Source: a virus (lineage: Duplodnaviria > Caudoviricetes). From it: a stretch of DNA of 64,000 bases. The stretch's first letter is position 1, and every line of letters begins with the position of its first letter. The stretch covers positions 96,001 to 160,000 of IMG/VR virus record IMGVR_UViG_3300021256_000002; one strand, written 5' to 3'. The notes beneath the pieces were generated by a model, which worked only from the letters and a program-made list of their open reading frames with translations, was not told the DNA's origin and searched no databases. Shown piece after piece: positions 22,679 through 28,157 of this stretch. The position numbers and the translations under genes are program-made.

Positions 22679-23335
22679 TTATCTGTAATGAGCGAACTTA
22701 TCTACCTCAATATGAGTGTTACCAACACCATAATGATTTCTTAGCCAGAGGGCGCGACTCCGAAGGATACTCCCACCTCTAGTAGGCTCATTCCACGGGT
22801 TATACTTAGGAGATTCGTCATTGAAGAGAACCTCTAAGTCCCATCTTTCAACAGTGTTCTTAGGTCCATAATCGTAATGAGGATGGATACCATCCTCATT
22901 GTCGGCAGCTTCACCATGAGTCAATACACGCTTCTTATCAATACTCAAATCAAGAGCATCACAAAGAACAGTAATTACACGAACCATGGATTCCAACTGA
23001 GCTGCCGTTGGAGGATTCGTACCACCAGATTCGGTAGACCCATCAAACATACAAAGCAGTGAAATTGAGATAGAACCAGAATTACGAAGCCATGTGCCGC
23101 CTCCGATATCGTCCAAGTCAAGTCCATTGTACCGGTAGATAGAACCATCTTTATCAATCTGGATTTCATACGAATCCCAGAACTGATGATATCTACCAGC
23201 CGTCCAATGAAGATAGATTTTCACATCTCGACCATTCACTCTTGCCTGGCGCCAAAGGTTGTCATAGCACCCACGTGCTTCATTGTATAAGTCCGTAAGA
23301 TTGACCTTACGAACATCAGTAGTTACTTCACTCAT
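22679..23335 (-). CDS. N-acetylmuramoyl-L-alanine amidase (probable endolysin)
   Basis: IYLHWTAG, IDKDGSI, RNSGSISISL, PTAAQLES and VLTHGE Amidase_2 motifs. Confidence 0.8.
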   Translation of the reverse strand: MSEVTTDVRKVNLTDLYNEARGCYDNLWRQARVNGRDVKIYLHWTAGRYHQFWDSYEIQIDKDGSIYRYNGLDLDDIGGGTWLRNSGSISISLLCMFDGSTESGGTNPPTAAQLESMVRVITVLCDALDLSIDKKRVLTHGEAADNEDGIHPHYDYGPKNTVERWDLEVLFNDESPKYNPWNEPTRGGSILRSRALWLRNHYGVGNTHIEVDKFAHYR

Positions 23336-24120
23336 AAGATTTTCACCCCGTCTCTCTTCTGAATATGTGTCAAATCATCGTTTCGAAGACTTGTAAACGC
23401 TTGGATAAATGCACCATACTGTTTATTTACAATCTTGATATAGTTTAAGCCAAGTTGCTTACGCATTACGTTATCCTTGGCTTTCTCTTTGACTTTATCA
23501 ACTTCCTGAATCTTATGGTGCATATTTGGATTATCTCCTCCATCTTTTATTTCTATTTCCAGATTCAAATCCGGTACATAGAAATCTGGTATATAAAAAT
23601 GGGTTTTTCCATCATATGTATACTTATATGTGTTAGGAGAAGGTCCAATGATATCGGTAGATTTTAGATTCAAAACATCTTCGCATATGCGAAGGAAGTC
23701 TTTCTCATACGTGCCGGTATATTGAGTTTTTCCACCATCATCCCACTCATATATTCCAGAGATTTTTCTTCCAGCCAACATTTTTCGTTGATGGTCAGCA
23801 AACTGAGCTTGATTGGGGTCTTTCCCAACACTTTTCATCCGATTCTTGAAAGTCTCACGAACTTTCTTCAAGCATTCTGGATTTCCACATAATCTACGAT
23901 ATTTGTGAGTACGTGGATTCCAATCAGTTGGTTTATGACATTCCGTACAATACGTTTTCTTACCGTTATGGGTCAGGTCGTAAAAGTATTGGTCAGCTGG
24001 CATATCTTTTGGTAAAGGATGTGATGTTTCCATATGATGCCATACAGCGGCATGAGAAATATACTCTTTATCACATATAGGACATTTAATCCTTTTGATT
24101 GTAGGTCCCAACATTAGCAC
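23332..24120 (-). CDS. Zn-finger + PD-(D/E)XK (TnsA/T4 gp4 head-completion-like) nuclease
   Basis: CPIC..H...H, CTEC, and YEKDF...FYIPDFY...EIEIK motifs. Confidence 0.65.
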   Translation of the reverse strand: MLMLGPTIKRIKCPICDKEYISHAAVWHHMETSHPLPKDMPADQYFYDLTHNGKKTYCTECHKPTDWNPRTHKYRRLCGNPECLKKVRETFKNRMKSVGKDPNQAQFADHQRKMLAGRKISGIYEWDDGGKTQYTGTYEKDFLRICEDVLNLKSTDIIGPSPNTYKYTYDGKTHFYIPDFYVPDLNLEIEIKDGGDNPNMHHKIQEVDKVKEKAKDNVMRKQLGLNYIKIVNKQYGAFIQAFTSLRNDDLTHIQKRDGVKIL

Positions 24121-24205: not shown

Positions 24206-25093
24206 ATGTACTTTGACGAATATGATTCCGTTATGGAAATGCTTAAAGATGATTTAGAAATGGCTAAAACTCCAGTCAATGAGTTTGTAAGTACATGGCA
24301 AGCTAAAGCACTACAAAGGCGAGCTGATCAAGTGAATGCTCAGAGAAATGCTGCTGGGTTACAAGGTAGAAGTGGTTCAGCTAAATTAAGCGGTGGCCAA
24401 GTGAGGCAGGCTTATCAGAATATGGCTAATAGAGCACCTGGCGCTGCTTCTGTTGGTCCTAAACCAGGTAATCCGTCTCCTCAACAGACGATTACACCTA
24501 AGCCGAATACGACTCCTGTACAGCCAGCAAAAACAGCAGCTCCGACTCAGCCTGCAGCGAAGCCCGCTCAACCTGCTACTACGCAACCAGTCGCGAAGCC
24601 TGCTGCTCCAGCACAACCTGCGAAAACTGCACCAGGTGCAGCATCAACTCCAGCAGCACCGGCACGTAAGCCAATGGTATATGGTAGTGATGAATACAAT
24701 AAGACGGCTAAGCAATTTGGTATCAAGGATGATTCTCAGAAGAGCACTGCTGAATTGCAATCTGAGTCCAAAGCTCGTATGGGTCGAATAAATGATTTGG
24801 TTGCTCAGCTGCATAATAAGACTCCTATGCAGAAGAAAGTTGAAGCTAGTCAAGCCCATTATAACACTTTAACCAATAACGGTACTCAGAGTGTTCCTGC
24901 TGGAGTTAAACCTACTACGATATGGAGTAATAATGGCGATGTGAATGCTGCAAAGAAAGCAGCGACTGCTCAGCGTACGGAAGTGTTTGATACGAAGAAA
25001 TCAACTACTCCGCCACCAGCAAATGCGCAACCTGCAACGAATACTACACAATCTGCTCCTACACCTGGACAGAATATCGCTAAAGAACGGTAA
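24206..25093 (+). CDS. Low-complexity Pro/Ala/Thr/Gln-rich putative internal head protein
   Basis: Acidic leader MYFDEYDSVMEM..VNE, then basic QPAAKPA repeats; late promoter at 24164-24175. Confidence 0.6.
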   Translation: MYFDEYDSVMEMLKDDLEMAKTPVNEFVSTWQAKALQRRADQVNAQRNAAGLQGRSGSAKLSGGQVRQAYQNMANRAPGAASVGPKPGNPSPQQTITPKPNTTPVQPAKTAAPTQPAAKPAQPATTQPVAKPAAPAQPAKTAPGAASTPAAPARKPMVYGSDEYNKTAKQFGIKDDSQKSTAELQSESKARMGRINDLVAQLHNKTPMQKKVEASQAHYNTLTNNGTQSVPAGVKPTTIWSNNGDVNAAKKAATAQRTEVFDTKKSTTPPPANAQPATNTTQSAPTPGQNIAKER

Positions 25094-25307
25094 AAGAAAA
25101 CAGCTAGGAATAACCCTAGCTGTTTTCTAGTGTAGACTAAATAGAATGTTGTTAATTGTTTTTGAGTGATAATAAATTGCTTTTTGTTATAGAAGAAATC
25201 CTAGATAGATTTTATTGATAGTACTATGAAATAGTAATCGACCGCCTATCGTATTTGTATCTATCACACCTCTTCTAATTAGGTGTGATTCAATTTATTA
25301 AATTTAA

Positions 25308-25325
25308 TTTCAATTATATATTATA
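25308..25325 (+). promoter_or_regulatory. Early-type promoter
   Basis: TTTCAATTATATATTATA upstream of the hairpin-array ORF. Confidence 0.65.
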
Positions 25326-25366
25326 ATGGTAGCTGAAAAGCTAAATTGGATTAAGGAGGAATCATT

Positions 25367-25750
25367 ATGATAGAAAAGAAAGATAATTTCGTCGTATCCA
25401 AAACGGATACGACGAAATTTAAAAGCAATCTCGTCGTACCTATTTTAGGTACGACGAGATATGAAAGTTATTTCGTTGTCCCTAAAACAGGGACGACGAA
25501 CTATAAAAACAATTCTATTGTTGCCGTTTTGGCAACGATAGAATCTAAAGACAAATTTATCGTATCCAAAATGGATACGATAAATTATGAAAGTAATTTC
25601 GGCGTTGCCAAAATGACAAAGCTGAGATCTAAAAGTTATCTCAGCGTATCCAAAACGGATACGCCGAATTGTAAAAATGATTTCGGCGTCGGTAAAACAC
25701 GACGACGAAATGGCTCAGTCAAAAGAAAAGCTAATCTCAAAGAAGAATAA
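25367..25750 (+). CDS. 14-aa repeat peptide encoded by the hairpin array
   Basis: GGGAGG RBS; eight in-frame repeats of the type NFVVSKTDTTKFKS with no stops. Confidence 0.55.
   Translation: MIEKKDNFVVSKTDTTKFKSNLVVPILGTTRYESYFVVPKTGTTNYKNNSIVAVLATIESKDKFIVSKMDTINYESNFGVAKMTKLRSKSYLSVSKTDTPNCKNDFGVGKTRRRNGSVKRKANLKEE
25385..25713 (+). repeat. Tandem array of 8 hairpin/palindrome units, 42-bp period
   Basis: Units start at 25385, 25427, 25469, 25511, 25553, 25595, 25637 and 25679. Each is a 15-nt arm, 5-nt loop, 15-nt arm and 7-nt A-rich linker. Confidence 0.95.
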
Positions 25751-25809
25751 TAGTCAATTATTGAGCGTCTGACTTTTTACTAATAAATTACAGAAAGAAG
25801 GTAAACCTG

Positions 25810-26172
25810 ATGGAAATAACTGAAAAATCACTCAATTTTTTCAAATCAACGCCATGGGCGATTGATGCTGAAAGAGCGAAGTCAAATGCAAGTAAAGTTG
25901 AAAAGCCTGTACAACCAGACGCTCGTACTCTAGTTGACTATTTAGACTCAATCAACTCAATATACCAAGCAATTGTGATGGTATCGAGTTATGGTATTGA
26001 TCACATAAATCTTCGTATCAATTCGAATGGGAAGTCAAATAGTCAGGGCTCTCAAAAAGTTGAACTGATAAAGAAGTTGTTTACTGATCTTGGGTATTAT
26101 GTATTTGCTCGTAGGTATCGACCAAATACTCCTGAGGAGTTTTATAAAGTTAGAATCAATTGGGGGAAGTAA
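25810..26172 (+). CDS. Hypothetical protein
   Basis: 120-aa ORF with RBS. Confidence 0.65.
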   Translation: MEITEKSLNFFKSTPWAIDAERAKSNASKVEKPVQPDARTLVDYLDSINSIYQAIVMVSSYGIDHINLRINSNGKSNSQGSQKVELIKKLFTDLGYYVFARRYRPNTPEEFYKVRINWGK

Positions 26173-26173
26173 A

Positions 26174-26986
26174 TTGATTATCTGCATAACTGATAAATGT
26201 GGAATGGGTTGCAACCATTGTTTATCGTCATGCGACAGTAACGGTCAGCACATGACCATGGAAGTGTTTGAACATGCTCTCTCGTATGCTGAGAGAGCAT
26301 GTATTACAGCCGGTGCTGTCTTGATTAGTGGTGGTGAACCCTTCGAGCATCCACAGATTAAGGAAATCCTTGAAAGAGCAGTTAAAACTAAAAGGACGTT
26401 GATAATCACCGTAGCTACTAACGGTACTAAGTTAATCGACGATAAGTCTTTGTATAATTGGTATAAAGGCTTCTTATCCCGTAATCCAAGAGTATACACT
26501 CAGGTTACAAATGTTCCTAAATATTATCCTAGAGAGCTCACTTTGAATGAGCGCTACTGGCTTAGTAAGCTTAAGAACTGTATAATTGTAACAGAAGAAT
26601 CTGAAGTTCCCTTGTATCCTCAAGGTAGAGCGTTAGAGAATTATCCAGCTGATGAATATCGTACACGTGGTCCTAAATGTATGGATACAATACTTATGGC
26701 GTTACAAACTAACGTTAGAACTGACTACGAACTGATACATCAGATGGTAATTAAATTACACAAGTTTTGTGTACCAAGAATAAATATTGATGGTTCTATC
26801 GCTATTGGTGAATCTAGATTATGTCCTACCATAGGAACTTTAGATGATACACCAGAAAAGCGGTTAGATGCTATTAGACGGTGGTCGTGTCGTGGTTGCA
26901 AGGAAGCATTCTGTGTCATGGCAAATCGAACACCAGAAGTCCTAGCAGTTTTAAGAACCAGAGATATATTAGTTGGAAAGGGTTGA
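26174..26986 (+). CDS. Radical SAM protein with C-terminal Cys cluster
   Basis: CGMGCNHC (CxxxCxxC), SGGEPFEHP and TNGT motifs; C-terminal CVPRINIDG...C...CRGC; TTG start after GGGGG. Confidence 0.85.
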   Translation: MIICITDKCGMGCNHCLSSCDSNGQHMTMEVFEHALSYAERACITAGAVLISGGEPFEHPQIKEILERAVKTKRTLIITVATNGTKLIDDKSLYNWYKGFLSRNPRVYTQVTNVPKYYPRELTLNERYWLSKLKNCIIVTEESEVPLYPQGRALENYPADEYRTRGPKCMDTILMALQTNVRTDYELIHQMVIKLHKFCVPRINIDGSIAIGESRLCPTIGTLDDTPEKRLDAIRRWSCRGCKEAFCVMANRTPEVLAVLRTRDILVGKG

Positions 26987-28157
26987 TTTTTACATGAAAG
27001 CAATTAGTTACAACATGGGAGAATGGACGGTAGTTTCTGATCATCTTACAGTTGAAAAGGGATTACCTCCGCTAACTTATACCGTACGGTATAAAGAAGA
27101 AAAAGGATTCTTCTTGAAAGAAGAACCCAATCTTACAGTGAATGAAAAGATGTATGGTAAGATGGTTAAAAACATCAATATCATGATTGAATCATTCAAA
27201 GCCAATAATCGTTCTATGGGCTGTATCTTTAGTGGCGATAAGGGTCTTGGCAAATCAATGGCAATGAGATACCTTGCTTCTAAAATGAATGAGCTAAAGT
27301 ATCCTATTATCATCGTTGATAAGTATTATCCAGGCATTGCAAGATTTCTTATGACTATTTCTTGTGATGCTGTAGTTATCTTCGATGAGTTTGATAAGAC
27401 CTTTGGTCCGACGATAAATAACAACGATTTGAATTCTAGAAATAACGATCCAAACTTCGATAAGCAGAATGAACTTCTGTCGTTGTTTGATGGGCTGAGT
27501 TCTAATCGATTCTTCTTCGTCATTACATGTAACTATCTCTACAATGTATCCGATTTCCTGCTTGATAGACCAGGACGATTCCACTATCATGTGAAGTTTG
27601 GATATCCAACTCGTAGTGAAGTTACTGAGTATTTGATGGATAATCTGAAACCTGAATACCAGAATAATATCACAGCAATTGCTAATTTCTGTGATGCTAA
27701 TCAGGTAAATTATGATGGTATCCGTTCGATTGTATTTGAGCTGAATATGGGTAGAGATTTTGAATCCGTAATCAAGATTCTCAATATCGACCAGAACAAG
27801 TTGCTCAAGTTCAATATCAAGGTCAGGACTTCCAACAAGATGGAATTCAGTGGAACGCTGACCATTGGCGGTGCTTCAAGACGGCCTACGTACTATTACA
27901 ACAGATACTCGCATAATGGGAAACTCAATAGAGTATTCCTTGATACTAAGAATGGTAAGAAGACTATTGAGGTACTTATTCCTGATGGAGCTATTGAATA
28001 CAACGAGAAGAAAGAAGCTTATGTCATCAAGAAAGGTGATAATATAACTCTGTGTGATTGGTATGATGCTAATGGTGAAGTTATCTCAGATGATGAGAAT
28101 CTCAAAGATGCTAAAATTACACATGTTGAGTTAGAGCTCGATAGGTCTGCTAATTGA
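26973..28157 (+). CDS. AAA+ ATPase
   Basis: Walker A GDKGLGKS, Walker B VIFDEFDK, and LLDRPGRFHY arginine finger. Confidence 0.9.
   Translation: MERVDFYMKAISYNMGEWTVVSDHLTVEKGLPPLTYTVRYKEEKGFFLKEEPNLTVNEKMYGKMVKNINIMIESFKANNRSMGCIFSGDKGLGKSMAMRYLASKMNELKYPIIIVDKYYPGIARFLMTISCDAVVIFDEFDKTFGPTINNNDLNSRNNDPNFDKQNELLSLFDGLSSNRFFFVITCNYLYNVSDFLLDRPGRFHYHVKFGYPTRSEVTEYLMDNLKPEYQNNITAIANFCDANQVNYDGIRSIVFELNMGRDFESVIKILNIDQNKLLKFNIKVRTSNKMEFSGTLTIGGASRRPTYYYNRYSHNGKLNRVFLDTKNGKKTIEVLIPDGAIEYNEKKEAYVIKKGDNITLCDWYDANGEVISDDENLKDAKITHVELELDRSAN

What the first reader, a model, noticed from the sequence alone, without database searches (positions are those of the whole stretch)
25385..25713. Array of eight covarying palindromic hairpins with an exact 42-bp period, in-frame inside an expressed-looking ORF
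Seen: each unit is a 15-nt arm, 5-nt loop, 15-nt arm and 7-nt A-rich linker. U1 AATTTCGTCGTATCC-aaaac-GGATACGACGAAATT (15/15). U2 ATCTCGTCGTACCT-atttt-AGGTACGACGAGAT (14/14). U3 TTCGTTGTCCCT-aaaac-AGGGACGACGAA. U4 ATTCTATTGTTGCC-gtttt-GGCAACGATAGAAT. U5 AATTTATCGTATCC-aaaat-GGATACGATAAATT (14/14). U6-U8 are more degenerate. Arm sequences differ between units, but each left arm matches its own right arm, so symmetry is maintained rather than sequence. Mismatches in U3 and U4 are G-U compatible on the plus-strand RNA. 42 bp is both 14 codons and about 4 helical turns. The array has its own early promoter and RBS and heads a unit containing a radical SAM and an AAA+ gene. It is not CRISPR, because the variable part is the palindrome itself. 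Inference, with alternatives: a processed multi-hairpin RNA (guide or decoy); a phased array of different operator decoys or an origin/partition site; or a library of interchangeable palindromic coding cassettes. This is my best candidate for an undescribed system.
Basis: partly seen in the sequence, partly recalled or inferred. Interest (0 to 1): 0.92.

Follow-up and report, generated by a model that had tools for sequence, protein, structure and literature searches.

The report
Hypervariable hairpin minisatellite in phage leader ORF
The eight hairpin-forming 42-base units are real, but close relatives of this gut jumbo phage carry 0, 1, 2, 5 or 8 of them, shuffled and with flipped loops, which fits a fast-evolving, dispensable DNA repeat shaped by replication errors better than a new RNA-guided or decoy system.

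Summary
Window 25385-25713 holds eight 42-nt units. Five have near-perfect 14-15 bp hairpins, and three have arms that partly pair with neighbouring units. They lie in a 127-codon ORF with a strong RBS, behind a phage promoter motif found about 31 times in this 253-kb phage.

In 27 distinct units from six alleles, arm complementarity covaries strongly (86% paired; 0 of 500 shuffles reach the score). Non-Watson-Crick pairs show no plus-strand G-U bias (13 plus, 19 minus).

Loops occur in both orientations. Orthologous units in two 8-unit alleles differ by exact loop inversions; in one, a T·G mismatch became C·A. Arm homogenisation plus spacer inversion is the published signature of DNA-polymerase template switching.

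Relatives from ruminant-gut metagenomes are about 97% identical downstream of the array. They carry 8, 5, 5, 2, 1, 1 or 0 units.

The radical SAM gene is a separate indel. One allele has 2 units and no rSAM; one has 0 units and a broken rSAM.

I found no Rfam family, no Nop/Tas protein, no unit copies or arm targets elsewhere in the genome, and no confident peptide fold.

Best reading: a lineage-restricted, dispensable palindromic minisatellite in a translated leader. A decoy or structured-RNA role is not excluded.

The parts
25289..25328 (+). Phage promoter-like motif (core AATTTCAATTATATATTATA at 25306-25325)
   Evidence: The core pattern AATTTCAAWTATATAWTATA occurs 31 times in the 253-kb genome at up to 2 mismatches, against 0 for the reversed control. 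Extended copies lie upstream of other genes. Many unrelated contigs pile up on 25289-25327 in four metagenomes. The timing class (early, middle or late) was not tested.
25353..25359 (+). Shine-Dalgarno AAGGAGG, 7 nt before the ATG
   Evidence: Read directly from the sequence. An AAGGAGG or AGGAGG plus ATG is kept in all six array-bearing alleles.
25367..25750 (+). Leader ORF of 127 codons that contains the array
   Evidence: Frame 0 is the only stop-free frame of six in every allele, for ORFs of 24, 38, 85, 89, 122 and 127 codons. Two different C-terminal tails are used. No family match and no confident fold: AF2 pLDDT 34, ESM Atlas pLDDT 0.48.
25385..25426 (.). U1, perfect 15-bp arms, loop AAAAC
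   Evidence: -21.2 kcal/mol
25427..25468 (.). U2, perfect arms, loop ATTTT (inverted orientation)
   Evidence: -24.4 kcal/mol. Its ortholog in L099 has AAAAT.
25469..25510 (.). U3, 12-bp stem with one T·G, loop AAAAC
25511..25552 (.). U4, 14-bp stem with one T·G, loop GTTTT
   Evidence: The L099 ortholog has loop AAAAC, and the mismatch is turned into C·A.
25553..25594 (.). U5, perfect arms, loop AAAAT
   Evidence: The L099 ortholog has loop ATTTT.
25595..25678 (.). U6 and U7, chimeric pair: U6-left pairs with U7-right and U6-right with U7-left; U7 keeps an 8-bp inner hairpin
   Evidence: L084 unit V3 equals U6-left joined to U7-right.
25679..25720 (.). U8, degenerate last unit with a 13-nt right arm, running into the non-repeat tail
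   Evidence: Relatives have perfect versions (L084 V5, L094 Z1).
25752..25778 (+). Weak hairpin AGTCA...TGACT followed by a T-run, between the leader ORF and the next gene
   Evidence: In alleles with no units the same place holds a 12-bp perfect hairpin without a T-run.
25810..26172 (+). 120-aa gene of unknown function, present in all relatives
26174..26986 (+). Radical SAM gene (270 aa; CX3CX2C plus a C-terminal CX12GX4C and CX2CX4C), itself a presence/absence polymorphism
   Evidence: Absent in L087, L089, L103, L106 and L107, broken in L097, and removed by a clean 819-nt deletion joint in run X6.
26994..28157 (+). AAA+ ATPase (phrog_2376; classic Cdc48/VCP-type clade)

Best explanation
The array is a lineage-restricted minisatellite of 42-bp hairpin-forming units. 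It sits in a short, probably translated leader ORF directly behind a phage promoter.

Shown:
- Unit number changes quickly: 0, 1, 2, 5 and 8 in phages whose flanks are about 90-97% identical.
- Units are recombined into chimeras.
- Loops flip exactly between orthologous units.
- Arms stay complementary while their sequence drifts.
- Mismatches show no strand bias.

Inferred mechanism:
- Replication slippage or unequal recombination between the similar units changes the copy number and makes chimeric, imperfect units.
- DNA-polymerase template switching within each inverted repeat then copies one arm onto the other (arm homogenisation) and now and then inverts the 5-nt spacer.
- This yields perfect palindromes of different sequence without any selection on an RNA or an operator.

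Inferred role: the element is dispensable. Because it is transcribed at the 5' end of the unit for the 120-aa gene, the rSAM gene (where present) and the AAA+ gene, and is kept open for translation, it probably acts only in cis. It would be a structured, ribosome-unwound leader that may alter mRNA stability or downstream expression. I read the open frame as avoidance of polarity, not as selection for the peptide.
For: - Copy-number and sequence flux among close relatives:
  - Window: 8 units.
  - L099-L102: 8 different units, identical in four samples.
  - L084 and L088: 5 units each.
  - L106: 2 units.
  - L094: 1 unit, a perfect palindrome.
  - A contig in run X5: 1 unit.
  - L087/L104, L103, L105, L107, L097 and L098: 0 units.
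  - Sources.
- Array identity between the two 8-unit alleles is 72%, against 96.8% for the 2 kb downstream.
- Exact spacer inversions between orthologous units: U2/Y2 ATTTT to AAAAT, U5/Y4 AAAAT to ATTTT, and U4/Y3 GTTTT to AAAAC. In U4/Y3 the T·G mismatch became C·A, as expected if the inner arms were inverted too.
- Across the 27 units, 20 loops read AAAAY and 7 read RTTTT.
- Covariation is strong, but G·U-type mismatches number 13 on the plus strand and 19 on the minus strand.
- Chimeric units: V1 is U2-left plus U3-right; V3 is U6-left plus U7-right.
- Published mechanism: template switching between short inverted repeats causes arm homogenisation and spacer inversion, also inside coding DNA, with spacers of 2-5 bp and arms longer than 9 bp (PMC8604942). 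It can create and maintain perfect hairpin stems (PMC8794818).
- Peptide not conserved: loop flips change K-T to I/V-L, two tail frames are in use, and AF2 pLDDT is 34. Thr codons are 11 ACG of 14 against a genome share of 21%, and CpG observed/expected is 2.3 against 0.94.
- No partner or target found: no Rfam family, no Nop/Tas, RNase III, RAYT or ToxN above cut-off, and no other unit copies or arm matches in the genome.
Against: - Purely neutral DNA should decay, yet two diverged 8-unit alleles persist, and one of them is identical in four independent samples.
- The SD, the ATG and an open frame are kept in all six array alleles. In L084 a 13-nt arm in one unit is offset by a 14-nt arm in the next, so the tail frame is restored.
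- Pairs C9-G27, G10-C26 and T11-A25 are nearly invariant, while neighbouring pairs vary freely.
- Loop orientation is skewed 20 to 7.
- These points suggest some selection on the hairpins, the ORF or both.
- No expression data could be obtained. The cis-regulatory role is inference only, and the mutation rates have not been measured.
Confidence: 0.55

Rival explanations
1. Functional structured-nucleic-acid array. The transcript (or ssDNA exposed during replication) presents up to eight stable hairpins that titrate or decoy a host factor recognising hairpins by shape. Candidates are an RNase III-type nuclease, a hairpin- or cruciform-sensing defence such as Lamassu/DdmABC or SbcCD, or a structured-RNA sensor. 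Alternatively the transcript is processed into unit-length RNAs. Sequence-diverse arms would also make the array less prone to deletion.
For: - The hairpins are very stable and complementarity is maintained.
- The array sits right behind a phage promoter.
- Presence/absence and copy-number variation are typical of arms-race accessory genes.
- An 8-unit allele is stable across four samples.
- Phage palindromes that form ssDNA hairpins are a known signal for the Lamassu system DdmABC (PMC11707656).
Against: - There is no strand bias in wobble pairs, and loops flip freely, so neither a loop-specific nor a strand-specific RNA recognition is conserved.
- A strong RBS and an open frame run through every hairpin, so ribosomes would melt them.
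- No Rfam family and no dedicated partner protein was found in the genome.
- Palindromes trigger Lamassu in the cited work. They are not shown there to block it.
- Many close relatives do without the array.
Confidence: 0.17
2. Repeat peptide. The ORF encodes a functional 14-residue-repeat peptide, for example a multi-core RiPP-like precursor modified by the neighbouring radical SAM enzyme, whose C-terminus carries a SPASM/twitch-like CX12GX4C motif. On this reading the palindromes are a by-product.
For: - The frame is open and the SD and ATG are conserved in all alleles.
- The array and an intact rSAM occur together in the window, L099-L101 and L094.
- Both are missing in L087, L103 and L107. 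In L097 the array is missing and the rSAM is broken.
- The rSAM's best family hits include SPASM-type peptide maturases, all far below their cut-offs.
Against: - L106 has a 2-unit array without the rSAM.
- rSAM homologs at 37-46% identity in other phages have no such repeat ORF upstream.
- No modifiable residue is conserved. The aromatic position reads F, Y, S or C, and Cys is sporadic.
- Loop flips swap K-T for I/V-L, and two different tails are used.
- No fold is predicted.
- Apart from the ortholog in one close relative (P0001, L084), database hits are chance periodic matches.
- A peptide gives no reason for palindromic DNA.
Confidence: 0.08
3. Double-stranded DNA or cruciform site array. 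On this reading the units are phased binding sites (42 bp is four helical turns) for a dimeric protein, serving as an auxiliary origin, a partition-like site or an operator sponge. Lambda ori iterons, which lie in frame inside gene O, are the analogy.
For: - The 42-bp phasing is exact.
- The symmetric core CGT...ACG is nearly invariant, and the central A-tract is conserved in either orientation, which a symmetric dimer would tolerate.
- The array lies about 1.2 kb from a switch in gene orientation and a local GC-skew minimum.
Against: - A protein site would conserve sequence, not complementarity. The inner four pairs take five different forms.
- No similar single palindrome occurs elsewhere in the genome.
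- The neighbouring AAA+ is Cdc48-like, not an initiator.
- The array is absent in many relatives.
- The array lies mid-genome, far from the terminal repeats.
Confidence: 0.08
4. Stack of minus-strand intrinsic terminators. On the minus strand each hairpin is followed by a T-rich linker, so the array would insulate the upstream divergent region from antisense transcription.
For: The consensus scan calls five terminator-like sites in the array on the minus strand: four single units (U1, U2, U5, U7) and one alternative U1-right/U2-left pairing. It calls none on the plus strand there. In all it finds 6 sites in 4.5 kb, against 2.3 +/- 1.4 in shuffles.
Against: - All credible genes for several kb downstream are on the plus strand, so no obvious minus-strand transcript needs stopping.
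- The T-tracts are short and interrupted.
- The A-rich plus-strand linker is equally explained by Lys, Asn and Glu codons.
- Relatives with 0 units manage without the array.
Confidence: 0.04

Closest known systems
Quasipalindrome or inverted-repeat evolution by DNA-polymerase template switching (Ripley model; Abraham & Hazkani-Covo 2021, PMC8604942; Monttinen & Loytynoja 2022, PMC8794818)
   Same: Arms are homogenised to perfect complementarity while their sequence drifts. Short (5-nt) spacers between arms longer than 9 bp are inverted exactly. Both occur inside coding DNA and cause multi-residue amino-acid changes.
   Different: Here the process acts on a tandem array of up to eight related units at one locus, combined with unit gain, loss and recombination. 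The published cases are mostly isolated inverted repeats.
Stem-loop TIGR arrays with TasA (Faure et al. 2025, PMC12045711)
   Same: Both are tandem arrays in phages of units with variable but consistently palindromic stems. An earlier finding of this scan on other DNA (e1-3284415) reported a 42-nt period for such an array.
   Different: [quoted passage not shown] Here the loop is 5 nt and has no room for spacers. No Nop-domain protein is found in the whole genome, and a translated ORF runs through the array.
REP/BIME and REPIN elements with RAYT transposases
   Same: Both are imperfect palindromes of about 35 nt that can cluster in arrays, form hairpins in mRNA, and come and go between close strains.
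   Different: REPs are dispersed in many copies, mostly between genes, share a conserved head tetranucleotide and go with a RAYT. Here there is a single locus and no other copy in the phage, in 596 Gb of bacterial genomes or in IMG/VR. No Y1 transposase is found above cut-off.
Lambda-type ori iterons inside gene O
   Same: Both are a phased series of dyad-symmetric repeats lying in frame inside an ORF.
   Different: Iterons keep a common sequence for one initiator and are essential. Here sequence varies, copy number runs from 0 to 8, and the ORF is not an initiator.
Type III toxin-antitoxin RNA arrays (ToxI) and phage pseudo-ToxI expansions
   Same: Both have a promoter followed by a tandem array of RNA units of about 36-45 nt. 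Copy number differs between closely related phages.
   Different: ToxI repeats are near-identical direct repeats cut by an adjacent ToxN. Here units are only 60-77% alike and palindromic, and no ToxN is found above cut-off.

Membership tests
Template-switch-shaped inverted repeats (quasipalindromes) | Arms converted to perfect complementarity independently of their sequence (arm homogenisation) | tested here: met
   Seven of 27 units are perfect over 14 bp, each with a different sequence. 75 cells changed on both sides, against 30 +/- 5 in shuffles.
Template-switch-shaped inverted repeats (quasipalindromes) | Exact inversion of the short spacer between otherwise unchanged arms | tested here: met
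   U2/Y2, U4/Y3 and U5/Y4 differ by exact reverse-complement loops. In U4/Y3 the T·G mismatch became C·A.
Template-switch-shaped inverted repeats (quasipalindromes) | Elevated, replication-dependent mutation rate at the locus | not testable with these tools
   There is only indirect evidence: 72% array identity against 96.8% in the flank.
TIGR-Tas (stem-loop type) | Adjacent Tas protein with a Nop domain | tested here: not met
   PF01798 gives no match at E <= 1 in the complete 253-kb genome. The neighbouring proteins have no such domain.
TIGR-Tas (stem-loop type) | [quoted passage not shown] | tested here: not met
   The loop is 5 nt (AAAAY or RTTTT) and the stems abut it.
TIGR-Tas (stem-loop type) | Tandem units with variable but palindromic stems | tested here: met
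CRISPR array | Near-identical repeats alternating with unique spacers | tested here: not met
   The variable part is the palindrome itself and the only spacer is a 7-8 nt A-rich linker. The genome was not searched for cas genes.
REP/BIME with RAYT | Many dispersed copies in the genome and a Y1 (RAYT) transposase | tested here: not met
   No other copy at up to 5 mismatches in 25 nt. PF01797 gives only a 13-bit sub-threshold match.
Type III TA antitoxin (ToxI-like) array | Near-identical direct repeats next to a ToxN-family endoribonuclease | tested here: not met
   Units are 60-77% identical. PF13958 gives only 14 bits, 36 kb away.
RiPP precursor with radical SAM maturase | Precursor and maturase inherited together | tested here: inconclusive
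   Together in three alleles. Both absent in one allele family. L106 has the array without the rSAM. L097 has no array and a broken rSAM.
RiPP precursor with radical SAM maturase | Conserved core motif with a modifiable residue, and a precursor-like peptide beside homologous maturases | tested here: not met
   No conserved Cys, Trp or aromatic-X-X motif. rSAM homologs in L090, L092 and L095 lack repeat peptides.
Known structured RNA family (Rfam 15) | Match to a curated covariance model | tested here: not met
   Only a chance mir-982 match at 26.5 bits, against a gathering score of 70.
Replication-origin iterons (lambda type) | Repeats of common sequence bound by a neighbouring initiator, and essential | tested here: not met
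   Sequence varies. The AAA+ neighbour is Cdc48/VCP-like. The array is absent in close relatives. Binding itself is not testable with these tools.

The most novel reading that the evidence does not exclude
The hairpin array is a selected, shape-only anti-defence or regulatory module. It would be a transcribed (or replication-exposed) set of sequence-diverse hairpins that soaks up or misdirects a host factor recognising hairpins by structure. Copy number would be tuned by the arms race, and template switching would be co-opted to keep each stem perfect while keeping units dissimilar enough to resist deletion.
Probability: 0.15. Interest if true: 0.8.

Novelty: new variant of a known kind. Interest (0 to 1): 0.4.

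Why it matters
This is an unusually clear natural example of how apparent RNA-style covariation can arise from a DNA replication error process. Six alleles of one locus show arm conversion, exact loop inversion, unit chimeras and copy numbers from 0 to 8 within phages that are otherwise about 97% identical. That is a caution for covariation-based discovery of structured RNAs in phage genomes. It also offers a tractable locus for measuring template-switch rates in a virus. If the hairpins prove to be selected, for example as a structure-only decoy, it would be a new type of phage accessory element. Present evidence makes that the minority reading.

Tried and rejected
- Related DNA. blastn of the array and of the rSAM/AAA+ region against 50,697 phage records gave no match.
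- Rfam gave nothing real.
- The 80 IMG/VR loci that hold AAA+ relatives of about 40% identity contain no hairpin arrays. The rSAM has no relative in IMG/VR by pattern.
- Exact-pattern scans for unit cores found only chance single hairpins in IMG/VR and nothing with a degenerate unit pattern. GTDB genomes gave none.
- RNA evidence: no RNA holder is listed among the sequencing runs, so expression could not be examined.
- The guide or operator-decoy idea fails for the phage's own genome. Arm matches do not exceed those of shuffled arms, and there are no other unit copies. The host genome is unknown, so host targets were not tested.
- TIGR-Tas came as a lead from an earlier finding of this scan. 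It is rejected because there is no Nop protein and no room for spacers.
- No RNase III, dsRBD, RAYT or ToxN partner is found above cut-off. PADLOC gives only generic rSAM-to-viperin similarity.
- Peptide. No Pfam, NCBIfam or PHROG family matches. AF2 pLDDT is 34 and the ESM Atlas model scores 0.48. Hits in 1.8 billion representatives are chance 14-residue periodic matches, apart from the ortholog P0001.
- The rSAM has no PDB relative by sequence.
- The origin idea gets no support from GC skew, which mostly follows gene orientation and shows only a shallow local minimum near 120 kb.

Full report
**What is there.** The window is positions 96001-160000 of a complete 253,296-bp virus record with direct terminal repeats and 37.9% G+C. 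Read in order, the locus contains:
- a promoter-like motif at 25289-25328, whose core AATTTCAAWTATATAWTATA occurs 31 times in the genome against 0 for the reversed control;
- an AAGGAGG at 25353-25359 and an ATG at 25367;
- eight 42-nt units at 25385-25720;
- a short non-repeat tail and a stop at 25748-25750;
- a weak hairpin with a T-run at 25752-25778.

Downstream follow a 120-aa gene, a 270-aa radical SAM gene and a 387-aa AAA+ gene of the Cdc48/VCP type.

**Check of the observation.**
- U1, U2 and U5 are perfect palindromes. U3 and U4 each have one T·G mismatch.
- U6 and U7 have exchanged outer arms, and U8 is degenerate.
- The region folds far better than shuffles as plus-strand RNA, as minus-strand RNA and as DNA, with z of -14.8, -13.8 and -18.
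- It is the only hairpin cluster in the genome.
- With 27 distinct units from six alleles, 86% of cells pair and 13 of 15 pairs show changes on both sides. No shuffle out of 500 reaches the observed covariation, and sliding the partner columns lowers the score to about 0.1 or below and pairing to 31-43%.

**Relatives.** Public phage records and IMG/VR held no close relative. Metagenome contigs did, found through the array ORF and through the neighbouring 120-aa gene. Logan contigs from ruminant-gut runs added more.

| Allele | Units | Radical SAM gene |
|---|---|---|
| Window | 8 | present |
| L099-L102 (same allele in four samples) | 8, different from the window's | present |
| L084 | 5 | contig too short to tell |
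| L088 | 5 | contig too short to tell |
| L106 | 2 | absent |
| L094 | 1, perfect palindrome | present |
| Contig in run X5 | 1 | on separate contigs |
| L087/L104, L103, L105, L107 | 0 | absent |
| L097 (85% identical 120-aa protein) | 0 | broken: internal deletion and frameshift |
| L098 (85% identical 120-aa protein) | 0 | contig too short to tell |

- L089 and the major variant in run X6 also lack the rSAM. Their unit number is not established (L089 begins inside the 120-aa gene).
- Between the two 8-unit alleles the array is 72% identical, while the 2 kb downstream is 96.8% identical.
- Units are mosaic. L084 V1 joins the left arm of U2 to the right arm of U3. V3 joins U6-left to U7-right.

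**What the variation says about mechanism.** Three observations decide between selection on an RNA and a DNA-level process.
1. Loops occur in both orientations (20 AAAAY, 7 RTTTT), and orthologous units differ by exact reverse-complement loops: U2/Y2, U5/Y4 and U4/Y3.
2. In U4/Y3 the inversion carried the inner arm with it. The T·G mismatch that looked G-U compatible on the plus strand is C·A in the relative.
3. Over all units, non-Watson-Crick cells are 13 G·U on the plus strand, 19 on the minus strand and 14 neither.

[quoted passage not shown] It has been described inside coding sequence, for arms longer than 9 bp with spacers of 2-5 bp (PMC8604942). The same process has been shown to create and maintain perfect hairpin stems, giving apparent compensatory substitutions (PMC8794818). 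Slippage or unequal exchange between the similar units accounts for the copy numbers and the chimeras.

**Is it a gene?**
- All six array alleles keep the SD and the ATG. Frame 0 is the only one of six frames without stops, giving ORFs of 24 to 127 codons.
- In L084 a 13-nt arm in one unit is offset by a 14-nt arm in the next, which restores the tail frame.
- Against a functional peptide:
  - two different tails are in use (NGSVKRK... and KWLxxKKS);
  - loop flips replace K-T with I/V-L;
  - Thr is encoded 11 times out of 14 by ACG, against a genome share of 21%;
  - CpG is enriched 2.3-fold;
  - no family matches;
  - AlphaFold2 gives pLDDT 34 and the ESM Atlas model 0.48;
  - hits in large databases are chance periodic matches, apart from the ortholog in L084.

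I read the open frame as tolerance. An insert whose length is a multiple of three, sitting in a translated leader, is purged only when it creates polarity.

**Link to the radical SAM gene.**
- The rSAM is itself a clean presence/absence polymorphism (an 819-nt deletion joint).
- It has the CX3CX2C motif and a C-terminal CX12GX4C followed by CX2CX4C, reminiscent of twitch/SPASM domains. It matches no specific family.
- The array and the rSAM often occur together. But L106 has two units and no rSAM, and rSAM homologs in other phages have no repeat ORF beside them.
- A RiPP-like pairing is therefore unlikely, though not excluded.

**Other families considered.**
- Stem-loop TIGR-Tas arrays share the variable palindromic stems, and this lead came from an earlier finding of the scan. 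They need a Nop-domain Tas protein and two spacers with box C/D motifs inside each hairpin. Neither is present.
- CRISPR, REP/RAYT, ToxI-type arrays and lambda-type iterons each fail a defining feature.
- No arm matches the phage genome beyond chance.
- The unit pattern occurs nowhere in GTDB genomes or IMG/VR.
- On the minus strand four of the units (and one alternative pairing between neighbouring units) look like intrinsic terminators, but nothing obvious is transcribed into them.

**Verdict.** The feature is real and striking. Its defining properties are best explained by a known mutational mechanism acting on a dispensable, lineage-restricted tandem repeat in a translated leader. Residual signs of selection keep a functional shape-only hairpin array alive as a minority reading of about 15%. 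These signs are:
- the persistence of two diverged 8-unit alleles;
- the near-invariant CGT/ACG core;
- the conserved SD, ATG and open frame;
- the skewed loop orientation.

Expression data could not be obtained, so the cis-regulatory role is inference.

Noticed in passing
window 26174-26986; L087, L103, L106, L107, L097: The radical SAM gene is a clean gene-sized presence/absence polymorphism between the 120-aa gene and the AAA+ gene. In L097 it carries an internal deletion of about 39 codons plus a frameshift, while staying 97-100% identical elsewhere. It has a C-terminal CX12GX4C followed by CX2CX4C (twitch/SPASM-like) and belongs to a phage-borne family of about 250-280 aa with no assigned function.
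   Followed up: partly
window 25306-25325 and 30 other sites in G000: The 20-nt motif AATTTCAAWTATATAWTATA occurs 31 times in the genome on both strands, against 0 for the reversed control. It is probably one class of phage promoter, often followed by a small 5'-terminal hairpin and a strong SD. The timing class was not determined.
   Followed up: partly
window 23332-24120 (minus strand): This 262-aa protein has an N-terminal C2H2-like zinc finger and a C-terminal PD...EIEIK motif typical of PD-(D/E)XK nucleases. It is conserved beside the locus in all relatives and may be a homing-type or structure-specific nuclease.
   Followed up: no
L087 209-241 and the same place in L103-L105, L107, L097, L098: Alleles without the array carry a perfect 12-bp hairpin (ATATTCAGTTAT-TGAGCG-ATAACTGAATAT) in the 5' UTR of the 120-aa gene. 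Array-bearing alleles have a weakened version followed by a T-run.
   Followed up: no
window 25335-25344 and 25725-25734: A 10-nt direct repeat GAAAAGCTAA brackets the SD, the ORF and the array, 390 nt apart. It could be a scar of insertion or a substrate for deletion, but the 0-unit alleles are not the simple deletion product.
   Followed up: partly
window 24206-25093: This 295-aa protein has a long Pro/Ala/Thr/Gln-rich low-complexity centre and no family match. Its length varies among relatives (282-310 aa).
   Followed up: no
L094 505-1755 and L097 1-272: Relatives carry a 416-aa protein with a PemK-toxin domain about 3 kb upstream of the locus.
   Followed up: no
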